Assembly: GCA_004321885.1 (NCBI GenBank)
Contig: SCQK01000008.1
Location: 1 to 44,042, forward strand
Source of the DNA: Patescibacteria group bacterium
GTDB taxonomy: Bacteria > Patescibacteriota > Patescibacteriia > Magasanikbacterales > GWA2-37-8
Direction of reading: 5' to 3'
Length of the DNA: 44,042 nt
Each line of letters begins with the position of its first letter. Position 1 is the stretch's first letter. Of the stretch, positions 1 through 37,245 are shown piece by piece. The notes beneath the pieces are model-generated. The model had not been told where the DNA came from. It made no database searches and worked only from the letters and a program-made list of their open reading frames with translations. The position numbers and the translations under genes were made by a program.

Positions 1-1299
1 TACAGTTTTTTTAATCAAATCAACCAAATTTGGGTGATAGTGTTCATATTGATTTTTTCCTTCTTTATTTAAATATATTTTAAACCACTCTGGATGGGAA
101 CTGCGATAGTAATCGGCCATGCCAGCAATTGTTTTGAATCCGGTGTTCATTTCTTTGGCCAACCCGCCGTTAGTCATCCATCCTTCCGGCGCTATTTCAC
201 CTCTTTCATCCGCTTTCTGTTTAATCAAATTTATCAAGTCATGGTGATAATGTTCTGATGGTCTTGCTTTTTTATCTAAGTATATTTTAAACCACTCTGG
301 ATGATATCGGCGATGAATTTGGGCTAAGGATCGTACGAAATTCCAACTTACCCCCAATAAAACAGCCACCCCACCATTAGTCATCCATCCTTCCGGCGCT
401 AATTCACCCCTTTCTTCTATATTTCTTTTTATTAGATTAATTAAATCTGGATGAAAATGCTCGTTTGGTTTATGTGCCTTGTCTAAGTATATTTTAAACC
501 ACTCTGGATGGGAACTGCGATAGTGATCGGCCATGTCAGCAATTGTTTTGCATCCGGTGTTCATTTCTTTGGCCACCTCCCTATTAGTCATCCATCCTTC
601 CGGCGCCAACTCCCTTTCTTCTATATTTCTTTTTATTAGATTAATTAAATCTGGATGAAAATGCTCGCGGGCGCTTTTACTGGATTTTTCTAAATACATT
701 TGAAACCATTCAGGATGAGAATGGCGATGTGGTGCTGCAAGTAATTTTATACTTGAATTACTAATATCTAATATTTCAGCTAATCCATTATTGGTTTTCC
801 AATCATCTGGTGCTGTGGTTCCCCTGTTAGATAGTGTCAGTTTTATTAAGTCGATTAAATTTGGATGGTAATGTTCGGTTGGCTTATTTGATTTGTCTAG
901 GTATGTTTTAAACCATTCTGGGTGCGAATTGCGATAAGCGTTTGCTAAATTATTGATTATTTTTCTTCCGGCTTTAAGTTCTCTCTCTAAACCAAAATTT
1001 GTAAACCAGCCGTTAGGAGGCTGTGGTACCCTTTTGTTTAGGTACTCTCTTATTAGATTTATCAGATTCGGATGTAAATATTCGTGTTTATTCTGTCTAT
1101 TTCCTAGATATATCTTAAACCATTCTGGGTGAGAATCGCGATAAGAATTAGCCGTTGACTCTATGAGATAGGAACTAACATTAAAAGATTTCGCCACCCC
1201 GTTATTAGTCATCCATCCTTCCGGAGCCCTTTCGGCTTTCTCTGTTTTTTCAATTGTTTGTACTACCGGTGTTATACCTCCTTCTGGTTTTCTATTCAT
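1..1299 (-). CDS. Partial (3' end beyond the window) tandem-repeat protein. It has at least 6 copies of a roughly 80-aa repeat (…APEGWMTNxGxAKxxN…YRxSHPEWFKIYLDKxxKPxEHxHPxLIxLIK…). Each repeat contains an HTH-like W-x-T-x-x-x-A motif.
   Basis: A minus-strand ATG at 1299 (the plus strand reads 'cat' at 1297-1299). The frame stays open to position 1. The roughly 240-bp DNA repeats are near-identical, for example 70-190 versus 490-600. The ORF track omitted it because it runs off the window edge. Confidence 0.5.
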   Translation of the reverse strand, partial: MNRKPEGGITPVVQTIEKTEKAERAPEGWMTNNGVAKSFNVSSYLIESTANSYRDSHPEWFKIYLGNRQNKHEYLHPNLINLIREYLNKRVPQPPNGWFTNFGLERELKAGRKIINNLANAYRNSHPEWFKTYLDKSNKPTEHYHPNLIDLIKLTLSNRGTTAPDDWKTNNGLAEILDISNSSIKLLAAPHRHSHPEWFQMYLEKSSKSAREHFHPDLINLIKRNIEERELAPEGWMTNREVAKEMNTGCKTIADMADHYRSSHPEWFKIYLDKAHKPNEHFHPDLINLIKRNIEERGELAPEGWMTNGGVAVLLGVSWNFVRSLAQIHRRYHPEWFKIYLDKKARPSEHYHHDLINLIKQKADERGEIAPEGWMTNGGLAKEMNTGFKTIAGMADYYRSSHPEWFKIYLNKEGKNQYEHYHPNLVDLIKKTV

Positions 1300-17553: not shown

Positions 17554-17555
17554 CT

Positions 17556-17642
17556 GTCATTGCGAGCGAGTCGCAGACGAGCGCGGCAATCCCATTCGTG
17601 TTTGGGGTTGCTTCACTCCACTTCGTTCCGTTCGCAATGACA
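17556..17642. repeat. Complete P3 MITE-like palindrome (gtcattgcgag…cgcggcaatccc / ggggttgcttc…cgcaatgac).
   Basis: Solo copy with both arms present. Confidence 0.65.
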
Positions 17643-17649
17643 ATCGTCT

Positions 17650-18056
17650 GTCATTGCGAGGTCGCCTGCGGCGACCGAAGCAATCCCATACAATCAAGTA
17701 TGCCGAAACGCAAGCAGTATTATGTTTACATAATGACCAACAAGAATAATACTGTTTTGTATACCGGTGTTACCAACAGTTTAGTCCGTAGAGCCTACGA
17801 ACACAAAAGCAAGTTCAGTTTTTATGAAAGTTTTACAAAAAAATACAATATCAATAAACTCGTCTATTACGAATGTTTTGATAATGTGAATAACGCGATT
17901 ACCAGAGAAAAACAGATAAAAGCCGGTTCGCGAAAAAAGAAAATAGATCTAATCAATAAAATGAATCCTATTTGGCGGGATTTGTATGGAGAACTTTACC
18001 CTGATTAGGGATGGGATTGCTTCGTCGGTCGCCTGCGGCGACCTCCTCGCAATGAC
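17650..18056 (+). mobile_element. GIY-YIG nuclease gene enclosed by P3-type terminal inverted repeats: IR-L 17650-17687, CDS 17700-18008, IR-R 18013-18056.
   Basis: IR-L is gtcattgcgag-gtcgcctgcggcgac-cgaagcaatccc. IR-R is gggattgcttcg…gtcgcctgcggcgacc…ctcgcaatgac, its near-exact reverse complement, including the shared core gtcgcctgcggcgac. Confidence 0.5.
17700..18008 (+). CDS. Small GIY-YIG nuclease-superfamily protein (YhbQ/UPF0213-like, about 102 aa).
   Basis: YYVYIMTNKNNTVLYTGVTNSLVRRAYEH, the GIY-YIG core. The ORF-track start at 17598 lies inside repeat DNA; the ATG at 17700 is taken as the start. Confidence 0.7.
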   Translation: MPKRKQYYVYIMTNKNNTVLYTGVTNSLVRRAYEHKSKFSFYESFTKKYNINKLVYYECFDNVNNAITREKQIKAGSRKKKIDLINKMNPIWRDLYGELYPD

Positions 18057-18611: not shown

Positions 18612-19625
18612 TTAAAGTCCTATTAAATTTCTAACCCCTTCCATTGTTTTGTCCGCCACCTTTTGCGCTTTGGCCGCGCCGTCTCTCATTATCTTGTCCA
18701 GCTTGGCCGGATTTTTTAACAGCTCGGCGCGTTTGGCGCGGAAATCGGCGAAATAATTGGCAATCGCTTTGGCCAATTCGTCTTTCAGCTCACCGTATCT
18801 TATTGTGCCGTCCTTTTCCGCTTTGACAAATCTTTCGTAGCTGGATTCCCCCGTACTTAGTCGGGGGAATGACAGACCGGATTCGAACTTTTGCAGGAGC
18901 ATCAACAGGTTTATCACCCCGGGCGCTTGGCCGCCGCCTTCGGTGGCCGTCACGGCGCGTTTGATTTTTTGTTCTATCACGCCCGGCTCGTCAGCCATCT
19001 CAATCACGTGGTCGGCGCCCAAACTTTTGCTCATTTTTTTATTGGGTTCCAGCAAGCTCATTACTTTGGGCGTTTCGGTGAGCAGATGTTTTGTTTCCGG
19101 AAAATACGCCCCGTATTTTTTATTGAACCAGCGAGCAATGTCGCGGGTCAGCTCTACGTGTTGGATTTGGTCTTGGCCCACCGGCACCATTTCGCCTTTG
19201 TACATTAATATATCCGCCGCCTGCAAAATCGGATAGGTAAAAAGTCCGGCCGTGGACATTTTAAGTTGCGCTGTTTTGTCTTTATATTGAGTCATGCGCT
19301 CCAGTTCGCTCATCGGGGTGAGACAGTTCAAAATCCAGGCCAGCTCGGCGTGGCCGGCGATACGCGATTGAAAATAAAAAGTCGTTTTCTTCGGGTCAAT
19401 GCCGGCGGCCAAAAGTTCAGCGGCCGTTGTCCGCGTTTGCGCGCGCAGTTCGTCGGGTGTCATTTTTCCAGAAAGCGAATGCAGGTCGGCGATAAAAATA
19501 TACATTTCATACTTGCCCGAGTTTTGTAAATCCACCCAATTTTTTACCGCGCCCAAATAATTGCCGATATGCAGGTTGCCCGTGGGCTGAATGCCCGAGA
19601 CGATGATGTGTTTGTGATTGGACAT
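18612..19625 (-). CDS. trpS: Tryptophanyl-tRNA synthetase.
   Basis: HIGNYLG (HIGH-class) and KMSKS motifs. An in-frame P2-type hairpin at 18848-18871 encodes …SFPRLSTGES…. Confidence 0.9.
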   Translation of the reverse strand: MSNHKHIIVSGIQPTGNLHIGNYLGAVKNWVDLQNSGKYEMYIFIADLHSLSGKMTPDELRAQTRTTAAELLAAGIDPKKTTFYFQSRIAGHAELAWILNCLTPMSELERMTQYKDKTAQLKMSTAGLFTYPILQAADILMYKGEMVPVGQDQIQHVELTRDIARWFNKKYGAYFPETKHLLTETPKVMSLLEPNKKMSKSLGADHVIEMADEPGVIEQKIKRAVTATEGGGQAPGVINLLMLLQKFESGLSFPRLSTGESSYERFVKAEKDGTIRYGELKDELAKAIANYFADFRAKRAELLKNPAKLDKIMRDGAAKAQKVADKTMEGVRNLIGL

Positions 19626-21494: not shown

Positions 21495-23711
21495 GTGTAT
21501 ATGATTGATTTTTCCAGCGACCTCAATGACGAACAATTAAATGTCGTTCTTAATGGCGACGGCCCGTGCTTGGTGTTGGCCGGAGCCGGCAGCGGCAAGA
21601 CGCGCGCCATTGTTTACCGTGCGGCTTATCTTTTGGAACAGGGCGTGAAGCCGGAAAATATTTTGCTCGTGACTTTTACCAACAAGGCGGCAGGGGAGAT
21701 GAAAGAAAGGGTGCGCGGACTCACCGGCAACGAGGGCTTGCCCTGGGCCGGTACTTTTCACAGCATCGGCAACAGAATACTGCGCCACCACGCCATGGCT
21801 TTGGGTTACATGTCCAATTTTACGATTTTGGATTCCGATGACAGCGAGTCATTGATAAAAATTTGCGCGAAAGACTCCCACCCCCCCTCAATCCCCCCCT
21901 CGGGCAGGGGGGGAGGATGGACCGGTGGTAAATTTCCCTCGGCCGGTAATTTGCAGGCGATAATCAGCTTTTCTCGCAACGCGGAAATGGCGCTTGCTGA
22001 AGTGTTGGAAACGCGCTGGCCCCAGTATGAGATGTGGGCCGACCCCCTGGCGGAAATCGCCAAGGAATACGAAAAAAGAAAATTACAGGCCAACGCCATG
22101 GATTTTGACGACTTGCTGGTGAACTTTTCGCGTTTGCTAAACGACCCGAAGATTTTGAAAAAATATTCCGGGCAGTTTCAATATATTCTGGTTGACGAGT
22201 ATCAGGATACGAATAAAATTCAGGCGTCCATCGTGAAAAAATTGGCCACCGAGCACGGAAATATTTTGGTCGTTGGCGACGACGCGCAAAGCATTTATTC
22301 TTTCCGCGCGGCCGACATAGAAAACATCTTGCGTTTTGAAAAAGATTTTCCCAAAGCGAAAATTTTCAAGCTGGAAACCAATTACCGCAGTAGCCAGGAA
22401 ATTTTGGACGTGGCCAACAACGTCATCGCCAACAATCCAAAACAGATAAAAAAGGAATTACATACCCCTCCCCAACCCTCCCCTTATAAAGGGGAGGGAG
22501 ATAGCGTTTCCTCCCCCTTTATAAGGGGGAGGTTAGGTGGGGGTGTCAAGCCCGAACTGCATCCGAAAATTGACCAAAGCGACGAGGCAAATTTCGTGGC
22601 CGAGAAAATCGCTTCGCTGATTCGCGGCGGAGTGGAACCGACCGAGCTGGCCGTGCTTTTCCGCGCGGCGCATCACAGCCAGCAATTGGAGCTTGAACTA
22701 ATGCGCATAGGCATTGATTACGATTATCGCGGCGGCCTGCGCTTTTTTGAACGCTCGCACGTGAAAGACGCCCTGGCCTACTTGCGCATACTGAACAATC
22801 TGGCCGACACGACCGCCTGGCTGCGCGTGCTTTTGTTTGAAGACGGCATCGGTCCGGTGGCGGCCGGCAAAATCGTGGATTATATAAGGAAGGTGGAAAA
22901 CGTGGAAGAAGTGGCCAAGGCCGGAGAGGTTTTGGGCGACAAAGCGCAGACGGGCTGGAATAATTTTTTACAAATTTGGAACAGCTTGCTGAATGTGGGG
23001 CCGGGCAGTCCGGCGCAACTGGTGGAGGCGATTTTGGCTTCGCCTTACCGCGATCGGCTGGAAGACGATTTTGGCAACGGCAACCAGCGGGCCGAAGATT
23101 TGAAACAGCTGGCGATTTTCGCGCGCAAATACGAAAAGCTGGATGACTTTTTATCCGAGGCGGCTTTGCAAGAGGCGTTTAGCATGCAGAGGAAAAAAGA
23201 AAGCGCCAGCAAAGCGCACGAGGGAAAAATTGTTCTTTCTACTATACATCAGGCCAAGGGGCTGGAGTGGTCCGGCGTGTTTGTGATTAATTTGCTGGAC
23301 GGGCAGTTTCCCAACGAACGCGCTTTGCGGGAAAACGGCGGGCTGGAAGAAGAGCGGCGCTTGTTTTATGTGGCGGTTACCCGCGCCAAAAAATATTTGT
23401 ATTTGTCGTATCCGCTGGCCGGCCCGGCCCGAGGCGGACAAAGCGGGGGCTGGGGAGACAGCGCGTCCGCGCCGAGCTCGTTTTTGGGTGAAATCAGTCC
23501 GGATTTGCTGGAAGATAGTTCGCTATTGCTTAAGCCGAGTTCGGTTTTTGATTTCTCTTCCCTTGCTAAGGGGAGAGATAGTGAGGGGTCGATCACATAC
23601 GTGGACGACCCGGATGCCGAGACCCGCCCCCACACCAAAGATTTTGGTGTGGGGGCCCGTCCCTTCCGCTTCAAACCCGGCAGTTTTTTGCGCGACGTGG
23701 GAGATTTATAA
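21495..23711 (+). CDS. uvrD: UvrD/PcrA/Rep-family ATP-dependent DNA helicase. It carries four in-frame palindromic-element insertions.
   Basis: Walker A GAGSGKT and helicase motifs across the length. The start is a GTG at 21495 or an ATG at 21501. Confidence 0.9.
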   Translation: MYMIDFSSDLNDEQLNVVLNGDGPCLVLAGAGSGKTRAIVYRAAYLLEQGVKPENILLVTFTNKAAGEMKERVRGLTGNEGLPWAGTFHSIGNRILRHHAMALGYMSNFTILDSDDSESLIKICAKDSHPPSIPPSGRGGGWTGGKFPSAGNLQAIISFSRNAEMALAEVLETRWPQYEMWADPLAEIAKEYEKRKLQANAMDFDDLLVNFSRLLNDPKILKKYSGQFQYILVDEYQDTNKIQASIVKKLATEHGNILVVGDDAQSIYSFRAADIENILRFEKDFPKAKIFKLETNYRSSQEILDVANNVIANNPKQIKKELHTPPQPSPYKGEGDSVSSPFIRGRLGGGVKPELHPKIDQSDEANFVAEKIASLIRGGVEPTELAVLFRAAHHSQQLELELMRIGIDYDYRGGLRFFERSHVKDALAYLRILNNLADTTAWLRVLLFEDGIGPVAAGKIVDYIRKVENVEEVAKAGEVLGDKAQTGWNNFLQIWNSLLNVGPGSPAQLVEAILASPYRDRLEDDFGNGNQRAEDLKQLAIFARKYEKLDDFLSEAALQEAFSMQRKKESASKAHEGKIVLSTIHQAKGLEWSGVFVINLLDGQFPNERALRENGGLEEERRLFYVAVTRAKKYLYLSYPLAGPARGGQSGGWGDSASAPSSFLGEISPDLLEDSSLLLKPSSVFDFSSLAKGRDSEGSITYVDDPDAETRPHTKDFGVGARPFRFKPGSFLRDVGDL
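21877..21920. repeat. P1-variant palindrome, in-frame in uvrD (it encodes SHPPSIPPSGRGGGW).
   Basis: cccaccccccctcaatcccccc-tcgggca-gggggggagg. Confidence 0.65.
22465..22545. repeat. Two tandem P1 elements in opposite orientation, in-frame in uvrD (they encode PSPYKGEGDSVSSPFIRGRLGGGV).
   Basis: Copy a at 22465-22502 and copy b at 22509-22545. Confidence 0.75.
23555..23590. repeat. P1 element (CTCTC variant), in-frame near the uvrD C-terminus (it encodes SLAKGRDSEGS).
   Basis: ctcttccc-ttgctaa-ggggagag…gagggg. Confidence 0.65.
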
Positions 23712-25135: not shown

Positions 25136-27496
25136 ATGCAAGAATCACGGCACTTAGAGTTTTTATTGGAAAGAGCTGGGATGCACGAAATGGAACGGCT
25201 TTTTGAAAAAGCCAAGCGGGATGTTTTGGATTTTTTGAATACGCCATATAAAGATTATGTTGAGAAATTGGACGATCAACAACCCGGCATACAATTTTTG
25301 CACAGCTCTGCTATTTTTGACGATTTTGAGAAAAAAATAAAAAATGTAATTGAAAAAGACCCGTCGCGTTTAAAAGTTGGCGCCATTAATTTTCTAAAAT
25401 TTTTATTGTTGAATGACAAAGCGGATGATTCACGAATTCCGCCAATTTTTGAAGATGTTTTCGTGAATTTTTATGACGATTCCGATACACCGACGCAAAA
25501 AACTTATCGGTCGTATCTTTACGAAAAAATAATAAAAGTTCTGATGAAGTTGAAAGGAAGCGATGCCGCTGTTGTAGAATGTCTGAAAGATATTGATTCA
25601 GTTGTATCCGTTAGCTTAATTGAGGATTTGCCACATGAGAAAGGCCGAGCGTACAAAATGTATAAGGGAAAATTTAATAAAGACATAAGCCCAGAGCAAT
25701 TTGACGTATTAAAACAAAGAAGACAAAAACAAATTGATGAAGGTGATATAGTGTATCGCGAGGATGCTTACGAAGAAACAGACATTGCGAATATAAATGA
25801 TGATAATTATAGAGTATATTATGATGAAGCATTTGAGGGGGAATTTTATGACGAAGAGGAGTATACATTTCCCAAAAAAACTGCTTTTAGGACGTGGAAC
25901 AAAAAGCAGGAAGTTGACCCGGTGGTCATTGACTATATAATTGAAAGCATTAGAACTGCTGAAACTGATTTTCGTGAAAATATTGATTTAATTTGTGAAA
26001 TTTTAAACAAAGACGCGGCGCGCGCCGGCAAAAAGTTGATGGAATTTGTCCAGCAAGAACAAAATCCGGTAAAAAAGTTAATCGCCACCAAGGTTTTATA
26101 TCGCCTGGAGTTCGGAAAAGTGGGAATGTCCGAAACAGGGTTGCGTTATTTGGACAAGCAGTTTGATTTGGGGGCGTACAACAATTCGGAAAATTTCGCG
26201 CATCGTCTTACGGGCGACGGCAAAGTGGGAATTTTTGACAAAAACAAACAAGCGCTCGGTTATTTCCAGTTGCACGGTCTGGATTCGCCGGAGCAAAAAT
26301 TAAAAGGTGATGTTTTGCGGTTCAGTTACGAGACATTGTTTCACCCCAAGCCGGGTGAAACGTCGAAAGAGCGCGCCGAGCGGGAGAAAATTTTGGAAGA
26401 ATTCAAGCAGAAATATTTTGACACTTATCTGCGGCAGGAAAAAGAAAAAGGAACCGGCAAGAGTTTTTATGAAGAAACCGGCGTGATGTTTAACAACTTA
26501 AGTTTTCCGGAACAGGGCTGGTTTTTGTGGTCTGTTTCGCATGCGAGCGAGGCGGATAAAAAACGCGCGATGGAGTTTATAAAAAAATATCGCGAGCCCG
26601 GGTTTAAGACGTTTTTATCGTTGGAACACGGGCAGGAAGGCGGGCGGGATATTTTGACTATCGGCGAAAATTTGGAACAGAAAACAGCCGAAGCGGTATT
26701 TCAAAAATATGGGCGGATAGTTGAAGCGACAAAGTCCATTGGCGGTTACATTGAGGCGCGGTTTGGCAAAGGGAAAAAATACAGCCAAGAGGACACGGAC
26801 AGAATTGTTGACAATCTGTTGAAAAGAGGGCAAAACTTACTTGCCGACACGGCCGATGAGATAGAAAAAGGCAAAGTAAAAGGCGAGATTATTTCCGAGA
26901 AATTGATGGAGAAGTTAAATTGTCTCCATGTGGATTTGCTGTTGTTCGCCAGCGCCTTCAAAGTATTTTCAAAAGATAAAAAAGAAATAAAATTTTCTGA
27001 AATAGAAGGAGTGGAACTGATTAGCAAGGACGCCAATGAGCTTGGAGAGCCGGAAAAAGAAGAAATGCGTAGAATTTTTATTGGCAACAGAAAAGAAGAG
27101 AAAGAGGAGTTTTCTGCGGAATATTTGGAAGAGCGGTCTAAACAATTTGATGAATCTGACCGCAAATATTATATCTTAAAAAAAGACGGCAAAGTCGTGT
27201 CATTTGCACGTTTCAACGAATTGCCGAACGGCAATTTGTATGTTTCTTTTATAAATACGGTTCCTGAAATAAAGGGCCATTCTATCGGTACCGCTTTTTT
27301 GAAGGTGGTTTTTGACCGAGAAACAACTAGTAGAGACGTAGAACTTAAAGTGCGCGTAGATAATCGCGTCGCCAAAAATTATCAAACAGATTTTGGTTTT
27401 AAAATAGTAGGTGAGCCGTTTGTTGATAAAAACGGGAAAAAGTATTTTAGGATGGTTCGGGAACCTTTGCGGGCGCGGCAGGAGAAGGCCGCATAG
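25136..27496 (+). CDS. Large hypothetical protein of 786 aa, AT-rich, with a C-terminal GNAT-like acetyltransferase fold.
   Basis: C-terminus …KVVSFARFNELPNGNLYVSFINTVPEIKGHSIGTAFLKVVF…VDNRVAKNYQTDFGFKIVGEPF…. By eye the GC content is lower than in neighbouring genes. Confidence 0.55.
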   Translation: MQESRHLEFLLERAGMHEMERLFEKAKRDVLDFLNTPYKDYVEKLDDQQPGIQFLHSSAIFDDFEKKIKNVIEKDPSRLKVGAINFLKFLLLNDKADDSRIPPIFEDVFVNFYDDSDTPTQKTYRSYLYEKIIKVLMKLKGSDAAVVECLKDIDSVVSVSLIEDLPHEKGRAYKMYKGKFNKDISPEQFDVLKQRRQKQIDEGDIVYREDAYEETDIANINDDNYRVYYDEAFEGEFYDEEEYTFPKKTAFRTWNKKQEVDPVVIDYIIESIRTAETDFRENIDLICEILNKDAARAGKKLMEFVQQEQNPVKKLIATKVLYRLEFGKVGMSETGLRYLDKQFDLGAYNNSENFAHRLTGDGKVGIFDKNKQALGYFQLHGLDSPEQKLKGDVLRFSYETLFHPKPGETSKERAEREKILEEFKQKYFDTYLRQEKEKGTGKSFYEETGVMFNNLSFPEQGWFLWSVSHASEADKKRAMEFIKKYREPGFKTFLSLEHGQEGGRDILTIGENLEQKTAEAVFQKYGRIVEATKSIGGYIEARFGKGKKYSQEDTDRIVDNLLKRGQNLLADTADEIEKGKVKGEIISEKLMEKLNCLHVDLLLFASAFKVFSKDKKEIKFSEIEGVELISKDANELGEPEKEEMRRIFIGNRKEEKEEFSAEYLEERSKQFDESDRKYYILKKDGKVVSFARFNELPNGNLYVSFINTVPEIKGHSIGTAFLKVVFDRETTSRDVELKVRVDNRVAKNYQTDFGFKIVGEPFVDKNGKKYFRMVREPLRARQEKAA

Positions 27497-28289
27497 GCGG
27501 CAAAGAATTCCAAATATATTCAAATAACGAGCGTTGCATCTGCGCTATATTTTTATCTTCAATGATGACTCCGATTTGTTGTTCCTCGGCAAGCGTGGAA
27601 TAACTGATGGTGTCGTTGTAAATTTGCATCCCAGTTTTGAAAGGATTTAACGCTTGCGGGATCAAACGCACTTCAAGCAAACGTGAACTCGGCGGCAAAT
27701 TTTTATATCTTTCCCTCGTAAATGGAGTATCAAGAGAGATTTGTTTTTTGTGAATTCCCAGTTCAATTCTTTTTTCAACATACTTTTTGTTCATTTCGCC
27801 TCCGTATTTAACCAAAGCTTCCATATCAATAAAAGTGTAAATTTCGCCTTTGGCTTTTAAAGAATCAAAAGTAACTTCTTTTATTCCTTCGGGACCTTCG
27901 TAAAATTTCACCCCGGGTTTGTGGTGGGCCAGGCGGTAGCTGGATTTAAGGTCGCCCAGCACGTCGCCGAGCATGGCTTTTTGGCGCTGGATTTCCTTTT
28001 CCTGGTCGGCCACAAAGTCCTCTAACTTTTCGGGCGGGGCGGCGTTGTACATGGTTTTCTTGCTTTTATCTCCTGCGCCGGGCTTTTTTTCGGTGGCCAA
28101 ATCAGACGCGATAAGGTTGTCCAGCACATAGTAGAGCATGGTGCGGGAAAAGTTGGTTTGCTGGCGCAGCTGGGGGATAGTGGCGTCGGGCGTTTTGAGC
28201 AAAACCTCATATAGCAAGGCCTCGTTTTCGCCCAGGCCCAGCTCTTTCAGGGTATTCTGGATAGTGGTATTTTGGTTAGCTTTCTGCAT
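27447..28289 (-). CDS. TrmB-family transcriptional regulator (N-terminal wHTH plus a C-terminal effector domain).
   Basis: …LGLGENEALLYEVLLKTPDATIPQLRQQTNFSRTMLYYVLDNL…. Convergent 50-nt overlap with the 786-aa gene. Confidence 0.6.
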   Translation of the reverse strand: MQKANQNTTIQNTLKELGLGENEALLYEVLLKTPDATIPQLRQQTNFSRTMLYYVLDNLIASDLATEKKPGAGDKSKKTMYNAAPPEKLEDFVADQEKEIQRQKAMLGDVLGDLKSSYRLAHHKPGVKFYEGPEGIKEVTFDSLKAKGEIYTFIDMEALVKYGGEMNKKYVEKRIELGIHKKQISLDTPFTRERYKNLPPSSRLLEVRLIPQALNPFKTGMQIYNDTISYSTLAEEQQIGVIIEDKNIAQMQRSLFEYIWNSLPPMRPSPAAPAKVPEPS

Positions 28290-28444
28290 ATTATTGACAT
28301 TTTTTTAGCTGTATAAAGCCATTATAGCACACTTTTAGATATTTGTCAAGAGCAGATTGACATATTTAGGCATTTAGAATAGAAATTGGCTTGGCTAAAA
28401 TTAGCCAAAAAAGAAAAAATAAGGCGGAAAGTGAGGCGTACCCC

Positions 28445-28473
28445 TTGACATATTTTAAGATATATGCTATAAT
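28445..28473 (+). promoter_or_regulatory. Near-consensus sigma70 promoter: TTGACA, a 17-nt spacer, TATAAT.
   Basis: TTGACA at 28445-28450 and TATAAT at 28468-28473. A weaker TTGACA-type promoter lies at 28357-28385. Confidence 0.6.
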
Positions 28474-28479
28474 GCTCTG

Positions 28480-28691
28480 TTAAGCTGGAAAATCTGAAAA
28501 AAGGGCTGAATAAGCACAAAGGGCTTAACAAACAGGGTGTCATTCTGAACGAAGTGAAGAATCCCTGTCGCACATTTCAATACAAATGGCGGATGACAGA
28601 ACCTGTGGAGGAGAGACCACGGGCGGACACAAAGCCAATTTTCTAAAAGCAATAGGGCCTCTCTCCAATTTGGATAGAGGCCCTTTTCGTT
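28480..28691 (+). ncRNA. Candidate small RNA of about 210 nt, bounded by the consensus promoter and an intrinsic terminator. Identity unknown.
   Basis: No ORF. It contains a P6-like internal hairpin (cagggtgtcattctgaacgaagtgaagaatccctg). Confidence 0.3.
28655..28691 (+). terminator. Intrinsic terminator gggcctctctcc-aatttg-gatagaggccc followed by ttttcgtt.
   Basis: An 11-12-bp stem with one mismatch, followed by a T-tract. Confidence 0.55.
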
Positions 28692-28734
28692 AGCGATGAG
28701 GCGAGCCGCTATAGCGGCAAGCCCATCCGGCTAA

Positions 28735-28752
28735 CGATCCGCCTTTGGCGGA
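28735..28752. repeat. P4 mini-hairpin (gATCCGCC-TTTGG-CGGAT).
   Basis: Further copies at 32303-32319 and 37217-37233. Confidence 0.5.
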
Positions 28753-29100
28753 TGTTGCTTACGCGGATGAGGGAGAGAACTTATTCATTTCCTCATCCGT
28801 TGAAGCAATGTGAACAACAAAGTTTCAACGCCACTTGTCGTGGATTGTACATTAAAATGCTCCTCCGCGAGTCCGGGCGACCGGTCCGCGGGTTGCGAAA
28901 AGCATCGTCTGGTTATTCGTATGAGTAGGAGAGAGTCCTACCGATAACAAGATGATTTCTCTGTTTGCTCCCGCCCAAGGCGGGAGACCGGGCGGAGAGT
29001 GTCCCACGATGCGGCGAAAGCCGAGTCCGGGCGCTCGCGGTCCGGCTATATGCCTACAGAGACATATAGTACCGAGTGCGCCCTAAATCCGATCACAACT

Positions 29101-29125
29101 GTCATCCTGAATTTATTTCAGGATC
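29101..29125. repeat. P5 hairpin (GTCATCCTGAA…TTCAGGATC).
   Basis: Second copy at 37111-37135. Confidence 0.5.
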
Positions 29126-29166
29126 TCCGTTCGGTCGGAGGCGGGGCAGACGATCCCATATCATTT

Positions 29167-29203
29167 CCTCCCCCTTAATAAGGGGGAGGTTAGGAGGGGG
29201 TAA
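29167..29203. repeat. P1 palindromic element.
   Basis: cctccccc-ttaataa-gggggaggttaggaggggg. Confidence 0.65.
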
Positions 29204-29320
29204 ATTGGATCGCCTGCCTCGCCGGAATCCTTGGAGAGAAAAGCGAGTCGGCGCTATTGAGAGAGTAGGCCTGGAGCACTTTGACAATTTATCCACTAAA
29301 GCTGGCAACTGTCGTTTTTT

Positions 29321-29354
29321 CTCCCCTCAATAAGGGGAGGACGAAGGAGGGGTG
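29321..29354. repeat. P1 palindromic element.
   Basis: ctcccctc-aataa-ggggaggacgaaggagggg. Confidence 0.65.
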
Positions 29355-29515
29355 TTGTCATTTTTAGTGGCGCCACCATGGTGGTGGCGAAAGAAAGGAG
29401 GTGCGCCATGAAGCGCACCTATCCGAGTGGGTTTCTTTAGATAAAAAAAAGAAACCCCGCGTTGTGGCTGGCATCCACTTTAATCACTGCCCGCGGCAGA
29501 CGCAGTTCTGTCGCG

Positions 29516-29575
29516 CCAACCAAACCTCGGCGGTTCACCAAGTAGCCGGGGAAGTCCTCGCGTCAGCGAGGGCGA
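29516..29575 (+). repeat. Direct repeat DR1 (…ttcaccaagtagccggggaagtcctcgcg-tcag-cgagggcga).
   Basis: Nearly identical to DR2 at 30041-30097; the two are about 520 bp apart. Confidence 0.6.
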
Positions 29576-30040
29576 GCGTGGCTCCGACGCCACTCGGACA
29601 ACGGTGCTGGCCGGAACAAACCAGCCGCGAGCCGCGATGCTAATATCTCCTATAAGTCGGCTGACATCCGACGAAGTGGAGAGAATGAGGCATCGCGAGG
29701 GGCGCGATAGACCCCGAAGGTGCCACACCATGGAGATGTGGTGTGGTGAGGAGACTCGTCTCCTCGGGTTCGCCCGAGGAGACGAGGAGGCCGTGCTTGT
29801 GGCGGCCCTGGCTGTCTTCGCGTTCGCGGAGGCGGCGGGGCTGCCGCGACCCAGCTTGAAGCTGGGTTGGATGGGGTGGAAGTATCTCACCCTGTCCAGC
29901 ACGCAGGAGGTGCAGCGACAGCTGCAGCTCCTGCGGGAGCACGGCCCCGCGGGTTACTGGGTGGCAGCCACCCGGTAGCCGGGCGGTTGGTGGACCGCTG
30001 TCAAAAACCACCCGTCTAAGCGCTCAATCGCTTAGACGCC

Positions 30041-30097
30041 CACCAAACCCCGGCAATTCACCAAGTAGCCGGGGAAGTCCTCGCGACGCGAGGGCGA
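30041..30097 (+). repeat. Direct repeat DR2.
   Basis: See DR1. Confidence 0.6.
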
Positions 30098-30238
30098 TAG
30101 TCCGGTCATCCGACCGGACAAGCGCTCGGAGGCGAACAAGCACATGTTCGCCTTTCCGATTACTCTTTTCACCGCAATAGTGCGGTGGAAGGAGTTGAGG
30201 AAAACAAAAAACAGCTTGCAAGCGCGAGCTGCCTTTAG

Positions 30239-30314
30239 TGGTGGACCCGACGGGAGTTGAACCCGTTCCTCTACTTGTCAATGGTAGCATGCTAACCGTT
30301 TACACCACGGGCCC
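30239..30314 (-). tRNA. tRNA of 76 nt with an encoded CCA. The anticodon loop is AUUGACA, so the apparent anticodon is UGA (nominally Ser), but it has a short type-I variable loop. The isotype is uncertain.
   Basis: Minus-strand cloverleaf. Acceptor GGGCCCG/CGGGTCC, D-arm GTGT-AAACGGTTA-GCAT, anticodon arm CTACC-ATTGACA-AGTAG, T-arm ACGGG-TTCAACT-CCCGT, discriminator A, then CCA. A TATAAT about 20 nt upstream of the 5' end. Confidence 0.7.
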
Positions 30315-30550
30315 CAGAGTCCACCGGGTCTAATTATAACACAAAAGTCCCTTCCTAAGAAGGGACTCATGTGTGACAAGTAGATGTAAACCCACGATGT
30401 ATAGGTTCATGCTACCAAAATTACATTATCAAGAAAGTAGTATTTTGTCAAGATTAAATTATCCACAGGCGATTTCCACTTCAAGCGTCACGCTTTATTG
30501 GCGTTATGCTTGAGGCGGGAATGGTTCCCGCCCTATGAAAGGAGGGCGCC

Positions 30551-31411
30551 ATGAAGAGCGCCCAGAAGAAGGGGCCGCCGAGCCCCTCGTCTCGGCACAA
30601 CGACCTCGCCTCCCAACACAGGGGGGTGAAGAGCGGAGGAGCCCTCCCCTCCGGCGACGCCAAGTCGCCGAAGAGGAGGCCCTCCAAGATCAACAGCCGC
30701 CAGTTGGAGGGAATGGAATTTCAGTATCTGCTCCTTGACGGGCTTTGGGTCAAATGCAAGCAGTTTGGCTTAAGCGAGCGCAACAATACGGTTCTGCTCT
30801 GCGCCCTGGGCATCACCAAAGAGGGCAAAAGAGAGATCGTTGGCTTTATGACGAGTGACGCCGAGGACGCCGAAAGCTGGGGGCAGATGCTCGCCAATTT
30901 GAAAGAGCGCGGATTGAATAAGGACAAACTCGAGCTGGTCATTGCCGACGACAACGCCGGACTGGTTTCAGCCGTAGGCCACTATCTGCCGGGGGTTAAA
31001 TTACAAAAGTCCGAATGAAGTTATTAAAGAAGTGGTGCTGTGAAAACTTGACTTTTTAGCCACAAAAAGCAAATTGCCGCCGATGTCAAAATTATCTATC
31101 AGTCCAACAGTAGAGAAGAGGCCACCGAGCGGATGAAACAATTCGCCAGGAAGTGGTACGTGGCCGAAGAGAAAGCCGTGAACAGTTTGCGCTTCAATTT
31201 TGAAAAAACATTGACCTACTTTGATTGGCCGCCCGACACCTGGAAAAAAATCAGGACCACCAACATTTTGGAAAGAGAGTTCCGGGAAGTCCGGCGTCGC
31301 ATCAAGGTGTTTGATAATTCGTTCAACGACCAAAACAGCTTACTCCGATACGGCAATTCCATTTTTGACAATCTTAATAATCATTACCCTGCAAAAAGTT
31401 ATACACACTAA
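30551..31411 (+). pseudogene. Degraded IS256-family (Mutator-like) transposase. The N-terminal third is missing and there is a frameshift or deletion between about 31018 and 31090.
   Basis: Fragment 1 is …FQYLLLDGLWVKCK…REIVGFMTSDAEDAESWGQMLANLKERGL…LVIADDNAGLVSAVGHYLPGVKLQ. Fragment 2, in a different frame, is …KQFARKWY…FDWPPDTWKKIRTTNILEREFREVRRRIKVF…. Confidence 0.65.
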
Positions 31412-35107: not shown

Positions 35108-35742
35108 TGTCCAACCGACAACAAGGAGGTGCGTCGTGACCTATCACGGCAGTTCGTAAGGCAGGGTTAAACTTGCAGGAGAAATGGCCGCGCTCCTTTA
35201 CTGAAGGTCGGCCCATGGTCTGCTGATAGCCATGTATCCCGTATGACCATGTGGGTCAAGGAAAGTCAGCTCGGGTCCTGGCGCGAAAGCGATAGTCCAG
35301 GAGCCTCACCAAACGAGGCAAACATTGCGAACAGGGAGTGATTGAGCCCCTCTCGTGATGATTGATCCGAAAGGATCAAGCCGTGAAAAACACGGCAATC
35401 AATCTCGGGTGCGCAGGCGCGGGCCAAACGCATCTTAAAGTTCGGTTCGACCACGGTGTCGAACAAAGTAAGGGCTGGCCAAATCATTGGGTGCCCAGAC
35501 CCGCGACCAAGGCGAAAGGAGGTGAAAACCGCGTGCGTTCCACACGCATTTGCCTTGGATCCGGCGATCCTACTCGAGGAGAAAAACGAAGACAGCGGCC
35601 GGAGCTGTCTACCAATGGGACAATGCGCTCGGGGAAAGGGTTCTTGATTGCACTACAGTCAAGAACCCACCCCATCCTTGCTGATAAAATTTTTTCAGCA
35701 GAGATGAGGTTTGAAATGGAATGCCAAGGAAAGGAGGAAACA

Positions 35743-36207
35743 ATGCCTTGGCTACTGAAGAATGGTGAAGTGGTCGTGAATCGTTACCAGAGTCACCTCC
35801 ACTCCGACGTCGAGCGCTTGCTCCCGGAAGCGCTCGGCCAGATTGACCCGGCCGGGAGAGGGTTTCTCGTCGAGGAGGTGGTCTTTGACCGCGTCGTCGG
35901 CGAGACCACCTGCGTCGCCACTGGGCCTGGTGACCAGGCCGTTTACGCGAAGCGGCCCAAGCGGTTCGGGCCGAGCCGGTTCGTGAAGAACCGTTCGCCC
36001 GAGCCGTGCAACAGCGTCGTCGTCATCCTGAAGGCGGGTGACGGCGAGTACGTTCTGGTCACTGCCTTCGTGGGTACACGGCCCGAGCCGGAGCCCTGGG
36101 ATCGGAACGCCACCGAGAAGTCGGTGGAGTTCTGGGCCTCGCACGCCCTGATTTGGGGCAGCGAGCCCGTGATCCCGGGCACCGAAACGGACAAGTGCCC
36201 GTGGTAG
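35743..36207 (+). CDS. Hypothetical 154-aa protein, GC-rich.
   Basis: Strong RBS (aaggaggaaaca-ATG). It is the last gene of the GC-rich island. Confidence 0.4.
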   Translation: MPWLLKNGEVVVNRYQSHLHSDVERLLPEALGQIDPAGRGFLVEEVVFDRVVGETTCVATGPGDQAVYAKRPKRFGPSRFVKNRSPEPCNSVVVILKAGDGEYVLVTAFVGTRPEPEPWDRNATEKSVEFWASHALIWGSEPVIPGTETDKCPW

Positions 36208-37001: not shown

Positions 37002-37245
37002 ATATTTGTCAATACTTAACAAAGATATAAACATGGCAGTTCTTGACACTTTTTCCCCCTTTCTATATACTATTGCCAAGAACGTTACCCCGAGTAATCG
37101 GGGCACCCGAGATCCTGAAACAAGTTCAGGATGACAGGGAACTCGTGGCTGAGCTTCATCGTTCAGCTTTTTGTTAACGACAGAAATTTAAGAATTAAAT
37201 TTCTTGTCAGTTAACAATCCGCCTTTGGCGGATATTCATTATTTA

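What the first reader, a model, noticed from the sequence alone, without database searches (positions are those of the whole stretch)
28700..30238. A 1.5-kb non-coding, increasingly GC-rich, hairpin-dense stretch with a pair of 58-bp direct repeats, abutting the 3' end of a tRNA
Only short mutually overlapping ORFs occur on both strands; these are typical of GC-rich non-coding DNA. The density of perfect palindromes is very high (cacaccat…atggtgtg, gaggagac/gtctcctc, cagcttgaagctg, and two gagtccgggcg…ggtccg(c/g) motifs). DR1 (29516-29575) and DR2 (30041-30097) are nearly identical direct repeats bracketing about 520 bp. The position immediately 3' of a tRNA gene and next to a transposase remnant fits the remains of an integrated element, with the direct repeats as possible att-like sites. 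A large structured RNA is another possibility. I saw a GAAAG-CCGA-GUCCGGGCGCUC stretch reminiscent of the RNase P P4 strand, but could not find the matching ACAGAA-CCGGCUUA partner.
Basis: seen in the sequence. Interest (0 to 1): 0.55.

Follow-up and report, generated by a model that had tools for sequence, protein, structure and literature searches.

The report
Conserved large RNA plus hairpin-rich tail
The 1.5-kb hairpin-dense stretch is a mosaic: its first half is most of a roughly 0.9-kb structured RNA locus (leader plus about 0.7-kb core) shared by related candidate-phyla-radiation bacteria and absent from Rfam, while its GC-rich second half is unique to this genome and hides a probable 82-codon gene flanked by the two direct repeats.

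Summary
In detail: 17 perfect hairpins against about 1 expected, a 62-nt direct repeat pair (90% identical, 523 nt apart), a GC step at about 29500, and a tRNA 3' end at 30239.

There is no RNase P, tmRNA, intron or GOLLD/ROOL/OLE match, and the repeats are not att sites.

Related Patescibacteria contigs, reached through the neighbouring TrmB-family gene, share a + strand unit. It has a conserved sigma-70 promoter (28445-28473), a roughly 215-nt leader ending in an intrinsic terminator (28655-28692), and a roughly 700-nt structured RNA (28690-29389).

A covariance model built only from relatives finds window 28990-29151 (E=3.8e-7). 21 of 30 pairs show compensatory changes (0/500 shuffles).

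In this genome the RNA carries several dispersed hairpin repeats, two of them of the NTS/SRM-like type.

The tail (29390-30238) has no relative anywhere. Within it, ORF 29730-29978 has codon usage like the neighbouring GC-rich island genes, and a confident single-sequence AlphaFold model. "Non-coding" is therefore wrong there.

Function is inferred: a long structured leader or RNA that gates read-through into variable GC-rich cargo.

The parts
28445..28473 (+). Sigma-70 promoter (TTGACA-17-TATAAT with TG extension), divergent from the TrmB-family gene promoter at 28349-28321
   Evidence: It scores 12/12 in the consensus scan. A TTGACA-N17-TG.TA.A.T promoter is present at the same place in L004, L005, L007, L011, L014 and L024.
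28475..28692 (+). Module A: roughly 215-nt leader or small RNA. It has a GUUAAGC...GCUUAAC hairpin, a purine tract GGAGGAGAGACC (28608-28619), and an intrinsic terminator (stem-loop 28655-28683 plus U tract). It contains an SRM/NTS-like hairpin at 28537-28567.
   Evidence: It is conserved in 7 lineages, each with a terminator hairpin plus U run. The purine tract is complementary to the terminator 5' arm CCUCUCUCC (read from the sequence; inferred antiterminator). There is no Rfam match.
28690..29389 (+). Module B: conserved large structured RNA. Elements in order:
- P1, 28764-28772/28791-28799
- UUGAAGCAA, 28799-28808
- outer helix, 28988-28993/29040-29045
- GAAA-capped hairpin, 29012-29023
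- hairpin, 29046-29069
- invariant GUACCGAGUGCG, 29069-29080
- helix, 29088-29094/29133-29139
- ACUUUGACAAUUUA, 29278-29291
- stem, 29293-29300/29363-29370
- hairpin, 29371-29389
   Evidence: - nhmmer, with relatives as queries: window 28445-29083 (E=7e-10 and 4.6e-11) and 29255-29350 (E=3.8e-6).
- Covariance model R1, built from relatives only: window 28990-29151, E=3.8e-7.
- Pair counts: 95.8% of cells paired, 21/30 pairs with compensatory changes, 0/500 shuffles reach this, slid controls 36-52%.
- Helix tables.
- The + strand folds better than the - strand.
28732..28761 (+). Dispersed hairpin repeat (TAACGATCCGCCTTTGGCGGATG...) inserted in the P1 domain
   Evidence: A second copy lies at 37212-37241, 87% identical. 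It is absent from the relatives' P1 domain.
29099..29127 (+). SRM/NTS-like hairpin repeat (CTGTCATCCTGAATTTATTTCAGGATCTC) inserted in a loop of Module B
   Evidence: A copy lies at 37109-37137, 93% identical. The covariance-model alignment shows a 53-nt insertion here against 28 model positions. Motif type is as described in PMC11893778.
29137..29222 (+). Long hairpin enclosing a copy of the dispersed CCTCCCCCTTAATAAGGGGGAGGTTAGGAGGGGGT repeat (29158-29205). A second copy lies at 29312-29353, in the loop of the 29293/29363 stem.
   Evidence: The family has about 11 copies in the window. The fold is shown.
29399..29457 (+). Two perfect hairpins carrying AGGAGG and a 10-codon mini-ORF (ATG 29408 to TAG 29440)
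   Evidence: Read from the sequence. Short ORFs occupy the same position after Module B in L004, L007 and L014. Its role is unknown.
29514..29575 (+). Direct repeat copy 1: two hairpins (CCUCGGC...GCCGGGG and CCUCGC-GUCA-GCGAGG)
29730..29978 (+). Probable 82-codon gene (ORF83), GC-rich and extremely structured as RNA
   Evidence: - Codon log-likelihood is +0.40 bits/codon in frame, with the same six-frame pattern as moxR, VWA and g154. 0/2000 shuffles reach it.
- GC by codon position is 0.68/0.52/0.76 over the longer ORF 29604-29978 in the same frame.
- The upstream extension 29604-29729 looks non-coding.
- Single-sequence AlphaFold2 gives pLDDT 84.3 and pTM 0.66, with a beta-alpha-beta-beta-alpha-beta fold. 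The antisense ORF control gives 56.1 and 0.18.
- No homologue was found for the enclosing 124-aa ORF 29604-29978. There is no Pfam hit for that ORF and no PADLOC hit for ORF83 itself.
- Fold z=-15.
29988..29996 (+). 9-nt copy of the tRNA 3' end (TGGTGGACC)
   Evidence: It does not extend further. It is a weak lead only.
30037..30097 (+). Direct repeat copy 2
   Evidence: A Logan unitig from the same sequencing run starts at 30056, inside this copy.
30100..30187 (+). Three perfect hairpins (30100-30119, 30130-30153, 30170-30187)
   Evidence: No relative was found anywhere.
30201..30231 (-). Intrinsic terminator of the tRNA gene (8-bp stem at 30212-30231, T run on the minus strand)
   Evidence: Read from the sequence.
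30239..30314 (-). tRNA gene, convergent with the RNA unit. It is atypical: G3:U70 and A73, a short variable loop, and anticodon UGA.
   Evidence: ARAGORN and Rfam tRNA at 48.4 bits. Identity features were read from the alignment.

Best explanation
The stretch is the body and tail of one + strand transcription unit in a Patescibacteria (CPR) chromosome. The order of elements is as follows.

1. A conserved sigma-70 promoter (28445-28473) drives a roughly 215-nt leader that ends in an intrinsic terminator (28655-28692).
2. Directly behind the terminator lies a roughly 700-nt RNA (28690-29389). It folds into many helices, several capped by GNRA loops. It is conserved in sequence islands and by compensatory base changes in related genomes.
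3. Behind that comes DNA specific to this genome. It is GC-rich and densely hairpinned. It includes a probable 82-codon gene (29730-29978) flanked by two copies of a 62-nt two-hairpin module. It ends at the terminator of a convergent tRNA gene.

Most likely mechanism (inferred): the leader's terminator is opposed by an upstream purine tract that can pair with the terminator's 5' arm. Read-through would then be conditional, and the large structured RNA would act as a long leader or platform for the variable GC-rich accessory genes downstream.

The extreme hairpin density has three sources:
- genuine RNA helices;
- at least five inserted copies of short dispersed hairpin repeats that litter this genome, two of them NTS/SRM-like;
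- genome-specific perfect palindromes in the GC-rich tail.

Shown: conservation, covariation, strand, promoter and terminator conservation, repeat membership, and the coding signature of ORF83. Inferred: transcription itself, the antitermination switch, and any function of the large RNA and of the 62-nt repeats.
For: Origin: the neighbouring protein is annotated EPN28_02600, Patescibacteria group bacterium, on a 44042-nt contig.

Synteny and conservation:
- Contigs carrying TrmB homologues of 49-66% identity have the same unit upstream and divergent.
- Conserved blocks are seen in the alignment.
- nhmmer with relatives only hits window 28445-29083 (E=7e-10 and 4.6e-11) and 29255-29350 (E=3.8e-6).
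- Covariance model R1, built from L004, L007 and L009 only, finds the window (E=3.8e-7), L011 (2.6e-4) and L014 (0.016). All lie at the syntenic place and on the expected strand. Nothing else in 141 kb scores below E=1.

Structure:
- 95.8% of cells are paired, and 21/30 pairs show changes on both sides. 0/500 shuffles reach this. Slid controls give 36-52% paired and 3-5 such pairs.
- Seven helices were defined by hand. All are complementary within each species (98-100%) but less so between species (54-84%).
- The same helix order appears in all five lineages.

Strand:
- The + strand folds at -826 kcal/mol against -735 for the - strand, with stronger z-scores.
- Conserved U-G pairs are present.
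- A terminator with a U run is conserved in 7 lineages.

Read-through: in L005 a deletion fuses the leader's terminator to a 5'-truncated homologue of window gene 35743-36207. That gene can then only be reached by read-through.

Inserted repeats.

ORF83.

No promoter-like site lies between 28474 and 30238 on the + strand.
Against: - Only five distinct Module B sequences, one of them partial, and seven Module A sequences were available. The covariance-model alignment is fitted to the model, so pair counts lean towards the structure.
- There is no expression data.
- The terminator/antiterminator pairing involves low-complexity purine and pyrimidine tracts, so complementarity could be fortuitous. 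RNAalifold on a MAFFT alignment gave only a weak consensus for the leader.
- A strain with an identical TrmB protein (L019) lacks the unit. L022 (50% TrmB) lacks it too. The unit is therefore dispensable.
- The tail 29390-30238 has no relative, so nothing about it can be tested comparatively.
- ORF83 has no homologue among 5.8 billion proteins, searched as the enclosing 124-aa ORF. Only one of five AlphaFold models is confident.
- The segment 28565-30055 is present only in the MAG contig. The two Logan unitigs of the same run stop at repeats on either side. The join at DR2 is therefore not independently confirmed.
Confidence: 0.6

Rival explanations
1. Module B is a free-standing, trans-acting large RNA in the manner of OLE, ROOL or GOLLD. 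Under this reading it has nothing to do with the downstream DNA, and the GC-rich tail (29390-30238) is unrelated mobile or accessory DNA that happened to land between it and the tRNA.
For: - Module B has conserved sequence islands and GNRA-capped helices typical of RNAs with tertiary structure.
- What follows it differs completely between lineages.
- The locus lies in a variable, defence-gene-rich region: a PDC-S01 ATPase and MoxR-VWA in the window, and Csx3-AAA and AbiEii in relatives.
Against: - No promoter of its own was found. It starts one or two bases after the leader's terminator U tract, which itself appears to pair with the conserved GAAGCAA.
- No terminator-like site was found on the + strand at its 3' end.
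- In L007 its 3' part is duplicated in front of a second small ORF, which looks more like a cis element.
Confidence: 0.25
2. The whole stretch is merely a dump of REP/MITE-like palindromic repeats (a BIME-like cluster) in a tolerant intergenic region, with no RNA-level function.
For: - The genome is hairpin-rich everywhere, with 126 perfect hairpins in 44 kb.
- At least five hairpins in 28530-29360 belong to dispersed families.
- Many stems in the tail are perfect, as expected of young DNA palindromes.
- Logan unitigs break at two of these repeats.
Against: - The helices that define Module B are not dispersed repeats. They are kept at the same positions in relatives while their sequences change on both sides.
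- Relatives carry different repeat families inserted in the same loops.
- The promoter and terminator are conserved.
- No dispersed copy of the 62-nt repeat or of the tail hairpins was found in any collection.
Confidence: 0.1
3. The stretch is the remnant of an element integrated at the 3' end of the tRNA gene, with direct repeats as att sites.
For: - It lies next to a tRNA 3' end and near an IS256-family fragment.
- A 9-nt copy of the tRNA 3' end lies 243 nt downstream of the tRNA, at 29988-29996.
- The GC content is foreign to the genome.
Against: - The 62-nt repeats share nothing with the tRNA.
- The tRNA-derived match is only 9 nt and does not extend, even allowing 3 mismatches in 18 nt.
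- There is no integrase or recombinase.
- The first 700 nt are an ancestral, syntenic feature of the TrmB locus and not an insertion.
- GC-rich genes belong to this locus in relatives as well.
Confidence: 0.05

Closest known systems
Large ornate bacterial non-coding RNAs of unknown or recently studied function (OLE, GOLLD, ROOL, raiA; Rfam families)
   Same: - Size of several hundred nucleotides.
- Many helices, several with GNRA caps.
- Short invariant single-stranded islands, such as GUAYCGAGUGCG and ACUUUGACAAUUUA.
- Patchy distribution within one lineage.
- Location in variable or accessory regions. GOLLD and ROOL are often near tRNAs (own knowledge).
   Different: - No covariance-model match to any of them, even at E<=10.
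- Found in Patescibacteria.
- Preceded by a terminator-containing leader under one promoter.
- Followed by variable GC-rich small genes.
- The tRNA is convergent and absent from the relatives' loci.
Terminator-based riboswitches and attenuator leaders
   Same: Module A has a promoter, a structured segment, a sequence complementary to the terminator's 5' arm, then a hairpin plus U tract.
   Different: - No known aptamer was detected.
- No ligand can be inferred.
- What follows is not a coding region but a further 700 nt of structured RNA.
NTS / Ssn-related motif (SRM) hairpin repeats and the GIY-YIG ssDNA nuclease SsnA (PMC11893778)
   Same: - Hairpins 28537-28567 and 29099-29127 have the oriented TGTCAT + palindrome + ATC design.
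- Similar copies are dispersed through the window.
- A GIY-YIG ORF (17598-18008) is flanked by such repeats, as in the NTS-ssnA-NTS arrangement.
   Different: - Only one window copy (18841-18874) fits the published degenerate SRM pattern.
- These repeats explain two hairpins, not the stretch.
- The 62-nt direct repeats are not of this type.
REP/BIME clusters and Rickettsia palindromic elements (own knowledge)
   Same: Short palindromic repeats accumulate in intergenic DNA. In this genome they are even inserted in frame in genes (UvrD 22462-22544).
   Different: The core helices of Module B are lineage-conserved and covarying. They are not copies of a dispersed family.
att sites of tRNA-targeting integrative elements; integron attC sites
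   Same: Direct repeats bracket a short segment containing a small ORF, next to a tRNA 3' end.
   Different: - The repeats contain no tRNA sequence.
- No integrase is present.
- There are no RYYYAAC/GTTRRRY core sites (read).

Membership tests
RNase P RNA (bacterial type A/B) | Match to the Rfam covariance models, including the P4 helix and conserved regions CR-I to CR-V | tested here: not met
   No RNase P hit at the gathering threshold or at E<=10 on 28300-30600. The GAAAG-CCGA-GUCCGGGCG motif is not conserved in relatives.
tmRNA | tRNA-like domain plus tag reading frame and pseudoknots (ARAGORN, Rfam) | tested here: not met
   ARAGORN finds no tmRNA. The Rfam tmRNA model aligns only its tRNA-like ends to the tRNA gene itself, scoring 30.3 bits against a gathering score of 47.
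GOLLD, ROOL, OLE, HEARO, raiA, group I and group II introns, and all other Rfam 15 families | Covariance-model match | tested here: not met
   Nothing above noise in the window region or in four relatives' loci at E<=0.5.
Conserved structured RNA (generic) | Homologues in other genomes whose predicted helices are kept through compensatory changes | tested here: met
   (21/30 pairs compensatory, 0/500 shuffles reach this, slid controls far lower). Caveats: only five lineages, and the alignment is fitted to the model.
Conserved structured RNA (generic) | Evidence of transcription | not testable with these tools
   Only indirect evidence is available: a conserved promoter and terminator.
Terminator-type riboswitch or attenuator | Intrinsic terminator conserved downstream of a structured leader | tested here: met
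   A hairpin plus U run is present in the window, L004, L005, L007, L011, L014 and L024.
Terminator-type riboswitch or attenuator | Mutually exclusive antiterminator pairing supported by covariation, and an identified ligand or effector | tested here: inconclusive
   The purine tract is complementary to the terminator arm in every lineage by reading the sequences. The tracts are low-complexity, however, and the alifold consensus is weak. No ligand can be inferred.
Integrated element at a tRNA gene | Direct repeats that include the 3' part of the tRNA (usually 15 nt or more) | tested here: not met
   The 62-nt repeats share no sequence with the tRNA. Only a 9-mer of the tRNA end recurs.
Integrated element at a tRNA gene | Integrase or recombinase gene within the element | tested here: not met
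   Pfam finds none in the flanking ORFs or in ORFs of the stretch. Only a Mutator-family transposase fragment lies beyond the tRNA.
Integron gene cassette (attC) | attC with R''/L''-L'/R' inverted cores (RYYYAAC ... GTTRRRY) | tested here: not met
   By reading the repeat sequences. DR2 lacks any GTT at the corresponding place.
NTS/SRM repeats of the Ssn system | Oriented motif (TGTCAT, palindrome, ATC) in many copies | tested here: inconclusive
   Nine to ten look-alike copies are in the window. Only one fits the published degenerate pattern.
NTS/SRM repeats of the Ssn system | A small GIY-YIG (ssnA-like) gene flanked by the repeats | tested here: met
   ORF 17598-18008 matches GIY-YIG at E=1.3e-13. 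Repeats lie at 17554-17595 and 17648-17689.
Protein-coding gene (ORF 29730-29978) | Codon usage and periodicity of the local gene class | tested here: met
Protein-coding gene (ORF 29730-29978) | Homologues under purifying selection | tested here: not met
   No hit among 5.8 billion proteins, queried as the enclosing 124-aa ORF 29604-29978. No Pfam hit for that ORF, no PADLOC hit for ORF83, and nothing in the relatives' loci.
Protein-coding gene (ORF 29730-29978) | Foldable product | tested here: met
   AlphaFold2 single-sequence model: pLDDT 84.3 and pTM 0.66, against 56.1 and 0.18 for the antisense ORF. Only one of five models is confident. No specific fold family emerges.

The most novel reading that the evidence does not exclude
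Modules A and B are a new class of large (about 0.9 kb) ornate RNA specific to Magasanikbacteria-like CPR bacteria. Under this reading it is functionally tied to the hypervariable GC-rich cargo that follows it. It might act as a regulatory or scaffolding RNA of an accessory (defence or conflict) island. Its 3' module (ACUUUGACAAUUUA, stem, UGGUGGUG) would be reused in front of successive small-gene cassettes, as seen duplicated in L007. The 62-nt repeats flanking ORF83 would then be this genome's equivalent cassette boundaries.
Probability: 0.2. Interest if true: 0.8.

Novelty: new member of a known kind. Interest (0 to 1): 0.6.

Why it matters
Large structured non-coding RNAs are rare in bacteria, and each new class has opened new biology. 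None is established for the candidate phyla radiation, whose small genomes leave little room for 0.9 kb of non-coding sequence.

This locus offers a testable candidate. It has a defined promoter, a terminator-containing leader and about 700 nt of covarying helices, next to a TrmB-family regulator and variable defence-like genes.

It also shows how dispersed hairpin repeats (NTS/SRM-like and others) colonise loops of a structured RNA, and even reading frames, in a CPR genome.

Finally, a "non-coding GC-rich" stretch can hide an orphan small gene.

Tried and rejected
- Rfam at gathering and permissive thresholds, on the window and on relatives. Only the tRNA was found.
- blastn of 28300-30400 against plasmids and phages. 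No match.
- Exact-pattern scans with the repeat core (CACCAAGTAGCCGGGGAAGTCC) in GTDB genomes, JGI metagenomes and IMG/VR. 0 hits each.
- The same scans with the tRNA anticodon arm. 0 hits.
- The search for related loci with the TrmB protein in GTDB genomes. It returned only a distant archaeal relative, so that scan was wasted.
- A chimeric peptide query made from all open frames of the repeat, to catch spurious ORFs over other copies. Nothing found.
- A scan of IMG/VR for the conserved GCACTTTGACAATTTAWYC. One chance hit inside a phage gene, with no model match.
- Tandem or segmental duplication beyond the 62-nt core. Rejected: flank similarity is no better than in shuffles.
- A DGR template/variable-repeat pair. 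Rejected, because the differences are not adenine-specific (read).
- IS200/IS605-type ends. Considered, but there is no Y1 transposase and ORF83 lacks an HUH motif.
- MAFFT Q-INS-i structural alignment. Not installed.
- MAFFT plus RNAalifold. It mis-registers the covarying hairpins, so a covariance model from close relatives was used instead.
- The published SRM degenerate pattern. It fits only one window copy.
- Literature searches for a described CPR RNA of this kind. Nothing found.
Full report
**Observation**

- A count of perfect hairpins (stem >=7 Watson-Crick pairs, loop 3-12) gives 17 in 28700-30238. Dinucleotide shuffles give 0.88 +/- 0.98, and the rest of the window gives 3.95 per equal length.
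- RNA folding of 29440-30240 gives z=-13.7.
- The direct repeats are 29514-29575 and 30037-30097, 62/61 nt and 90% identical. They are unique in the window. Their similarity stops at the 62-nt core.
- GC content rises in a step at about 29500.
- The tRNA gene is on the minus strand at 30239-30314, so its CCA end abuts the stretch.
- ORF 30551-31018 is a fragment of a Mutator/IS256-family transposase.

**What it is not**

- No Rfam family matches at the gathering threshold or at E<=10 on 28300-30600. That covers RNase P, tmRNA, group I and II introns, GOLLD, ROOL, OLE and the rest. The same holds for the homologous regions of four relatives.
- There is no similar DNA in the phage or plasmid collections.
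- The repeat core has no exact match in GTDB genomes, JGI metagenomes or IMG/VR.

**Context**

The window is a whole 44,042-nt contig of a Patescibacteria MAG. It is chromosomal, carrying UvrD, rpsL-rpsG-fusA and a tRNA synthetase.

The gene to the left (27447-28289, minus strand) encodes a TrmB-family regulator. Two perfect, divergent sigma-70 promoters sit between it and the stretch.

**Comparative evidence**

I fetched contigs carrying TrmB homologues of 49-66% identity. In L004, L007 (and its near-identical copies), L011 and L014, the DNA upstream of TrmB shares blocks with window 28445-29390 in the same orientation.

Searches that use only the relatives as queries recover the window:
- A profile of L004 plus L007 hits 28445-29083 (E=7e-10).
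- L011 alone hits 28461-29083 (E=4.6e-11).
- L014 alone hits 29255-29350 (E=3.8e-6).

All lineages keep a TTGACA-N17-TG.TA..T promoter.

After it comes a roughly 200-400-nt leader (Module A). It ends in a hairpin plus U run. L005 and L024 also have this leader.

After the terminator comes Module B. By reading the per-segment folds, the same helices occur in the same order in every lineage, although their sequences differ.
- P1: GAUGAGG/CCUCAUC, GGUGAGG/CCUCACC, CCCCGUCCG/CGGACGGGG.
- An outer helix: CCGGGC/GUCCGG, GGAGAU/GUCUCC, GAGAUC/GAUCUC, GGUGG/CCGCC.
- A GNRA- or pentaloop-capped hairpin.
- A fully covarying hairpin immediately 5' of the invariant GUAYCGAGUGCG.
- A helix after that invariant sequence.
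- A stem after the invariant ACUUUGACAAUUUA.

A covariance model built only from L004, L007 and L009 finds window 28990-29151 (34.4 bits, E=3.8e-7), L011 (E=2.6e-4) and L014 (E=0.016). All lie at the syntenic place. Nothing else in 141 kb scores below E=1.

On the resulting alignment, 95.8% of cells pair and 21 of 30 pairs have changes on both sides. 0 of 500 shuffles reach any of the five measures. Sliding the partners by 1-3 columns drops pairing to 36-52%.

The alignment is fitted to the model and there are only five lineages. This is therefore strong but not final evidence.

**Strand**

- The + strand folds at -826 kcal/mol, against -735 for the minus strand, over 28700-30238.
- z-scores are stronger on the + strand in most segments.
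- Conserved U-G pairs occur.
- The promoter and the U-tract terminator fit only the + strand.

The RNA is thus convergent with the tRNA, not downstream of it. The tRNA has its own extended -10 promoter and a strong terminator (30201-30231).

**Inserted repeats**

Several hairpins inside the unit are copies of families dispersed through the window:
- TAACGATCCGCCTTTGGCGGATG at 28732, also at 37212.
- CTGTCATCCTGAATTTATTTCAGGATCTC at 29099, also at 37109.
- GTCATTCTGAACGAAGTGAAGAATCC at 28537, similar to 16099, 17554, 17648 and 40876.
- CCTCCCCCTTAATAAGGGGGAGG... at 29158 and 29312, a family of about 11 copies.

Relatives have different repeats in the same loops. The covariance-model alignment shows the window's copy at 29099 as an insertion.

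The TGTCAT-palindrome-ATC type resembles the NTS/SRM repeats. Those are cut by the GIY-YIG single-strand nuclease SsnA (PMC11893778). A GIY-YIG ORF flanked by such repeats is present at 17598-18008. However, only one window copy fits the published degenerate pattern.

**The tail, 29390-30238**

Nothing in the relatives' loci resembles it, at the DNA level or in six-frame translation.

- GC by codon position, measured over the longer in-frame ORF 29604-29978, is 0.68/0.52/0.76. This is the pattern of the neighbouring GC-rich genes.
- I trained a codon log-likelihood model on the GC-rich island genes, using sense codons only so that there is no bonus for being open. It gives +0.40 bits/codon in frame. 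The six-frame profile is the same as for moxR, VWA and g154.
- The overlapping minus-strand ORFs, the upstream extension 29604-29729, Module B and another non-coding stretch are negative in all frames.
- 0 of 2000 dinucleotide shuffles reach this value in any frame.
- AlphaFold2 without an alignment gives pLDDT 84.3 and pTM 0.66, with a beta-alpha-beta-beta-alpha-beta sandwich. The antisense 123-aa ORF gives 56.1 and 0.18.
- Fold searches find only generic alpha/beta sandwiches.
- There are no sequence homologues for the enclosing 124-aa ORF, and no Pfam or PADLOC hits.

ORF83 is therefore a probable orphan gene. As RNA it is exceptionally structured (z=-15). Other GC-rich genes of this locus also fold unusually well.

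The 62-nt repeats lie 155 nt upstream and 59 nt downstream of ORF83. Each is two hairpins. The six differences between copies lie in loops or single strands, or turn G-U into G-C.

They are not att sites. They contain no tRNA sequence, and only a 9-mer of the tRNA end recurs, at 29988-29996. No integrase is present.

**Locus history**

In L005 the leader's terminator is fused to a 5'-truncated homologue of window gene 35743-36207. A Csx3-AAA gene follows. In L014, Module B is followed, about 800 nt later, by a Csx3-AAA gene.

In L007 the 3' part of Module B is duplicated in front of a second small ORF. GC-rich genes thus belong to this locus in several lineages. This argues against a chimeric contig.

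The unit is missing in L019 (identical TrmB protein) and in L022, so it is accessory.

**Mechanism**

Shown:
- A conserved promoter, leader and terminator, followed by a conserved covarying RNA, on the + strand.
- Repeat insertions.
- A coding signature for ORF83.

Inferred:
- A purine tract (GGAGGAGAGACC, 28608-28619; GGAGAGAGG in relatives) can pair with the terminator's 5' arm (CCUCUCUCC). This would give an antiterminator.
- Read-through would produce Module B and reach the variable GC-rich genes. No other + strand promoter-like site precedes them.
- I consider this long-leader model the most likely reading (about 0.35-0.4 on its own). A free-standing large RNA is the main rival.

**Caveats**

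- There are few homologues and no expression data.
- Segment 28565-30055 is seen only in the MAG contig. The Logan unitigs of the same run end at repeats on either side.
- The join inside Module A is validated by synteny in relatives. The join at DR2 is not.

Noticed in passing
window 30239-30314 (minus strand): The tRNA is odd. It has a class-I cloverleaf with a 4-5-nt variable loop. It has G3:U70 and A73, which form the AlaRS identity set (own knowledge). Its anticodon is UGA (serine codon UCA), with a C31-A39 mismatch and C37. ARAGORN calls it tRNA-Ser. It has its own promoter-like TGTTATAAT and a strong terminator. Its anticodon arm has no exact match in the genome, metagenome or viral collections. 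It is either a possible mistranslating tRNA or a decaying one.
   Followed up: partly
window 22462-22544, inside the UvrD/PcrA-like gene 21495-23711: Two copies of the dispersed CCCTCCCCTTATAAAGGGGAGGG-type hairpin repeat are inserted in frame. They add about 29 residues (HTPPQPSPYKGEGDSVSSPFIRGRLGGGV) to the helicase, in the manner of Rickettsia palindromic elements. The family has about 11 copies in the window, several of them inside ORFs.
   Followed up: partly
window 17554-18008; also 13678, 16099, 18841, 37109, 40876: A GIY-YIG ORF (17598-18008, Pfam E=1.3e-13) is preceded by two TGTCAT-palindrome-ATC repeats. Similar repeats are scattered through the window. This resembles the NTS-ssnA-NTS arrangement of the Ssn single-strand nuclease system (PMC11893778), here in a CPR genome.
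   Followed up: partly
window 35110-35742: A second hairpin-rich, apparently non-coding stretch of about 630 nt lies upstream of a GC-rich gene (35743-36207). The listed ORF 35362-36207 is over-extended. Codon scores are negative in all six frames of this stretch.
   Followed up: partly
window 65-1242: Tandem repeats with a 207-nt period (4-5 copies, 62-100% identical) lie at the left end of the contig.
   Followed up: no
window 29988-29996 and 30239-30247: The last 9 nt of the tRNA gene (TGGTGGACC on the + strand) recur 243 nt downstream of the tRNA. The two copies bracket DR2, four perfect hairpins and the tRNA terminator. The match is too short to call an att duplication.
   Followed up: yes
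L024 675-1055 and flanks: In one relative, a bAvd / 23S-rRNA-IVS-protein-like gene sits between the TrmB gene and the leader's promoter. It is flanked by GGGGTTAGAATTTAGAATTTAGG palindromes.
   Followed up: no
L007 5567-6535: The gene called on the + strand of this locus scores as coding on the opposite strand (codon log-likelihood 0.54 against 0.02). The public gene call is probably on the wrong strand.
   Followed up: no
whole window: Perfect hairpins (stem >=7) number 126 in 44 kb. Even outside the target the density (3.95 per 1539 nt) is about four times the target region's shuffle expectation (0.88). GC-rich genes of the 32-36 kb island also fold far better than shuffles (z -3.5 to -7).
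   Followed up: partly
L019 versus L014: Two contigs encode the identical TrmB protein but diverge 145 nt upstream of it. L019 has an IS30-type (HTH_38) transposase gene and no leader or large RNA.
   Followed up: partly
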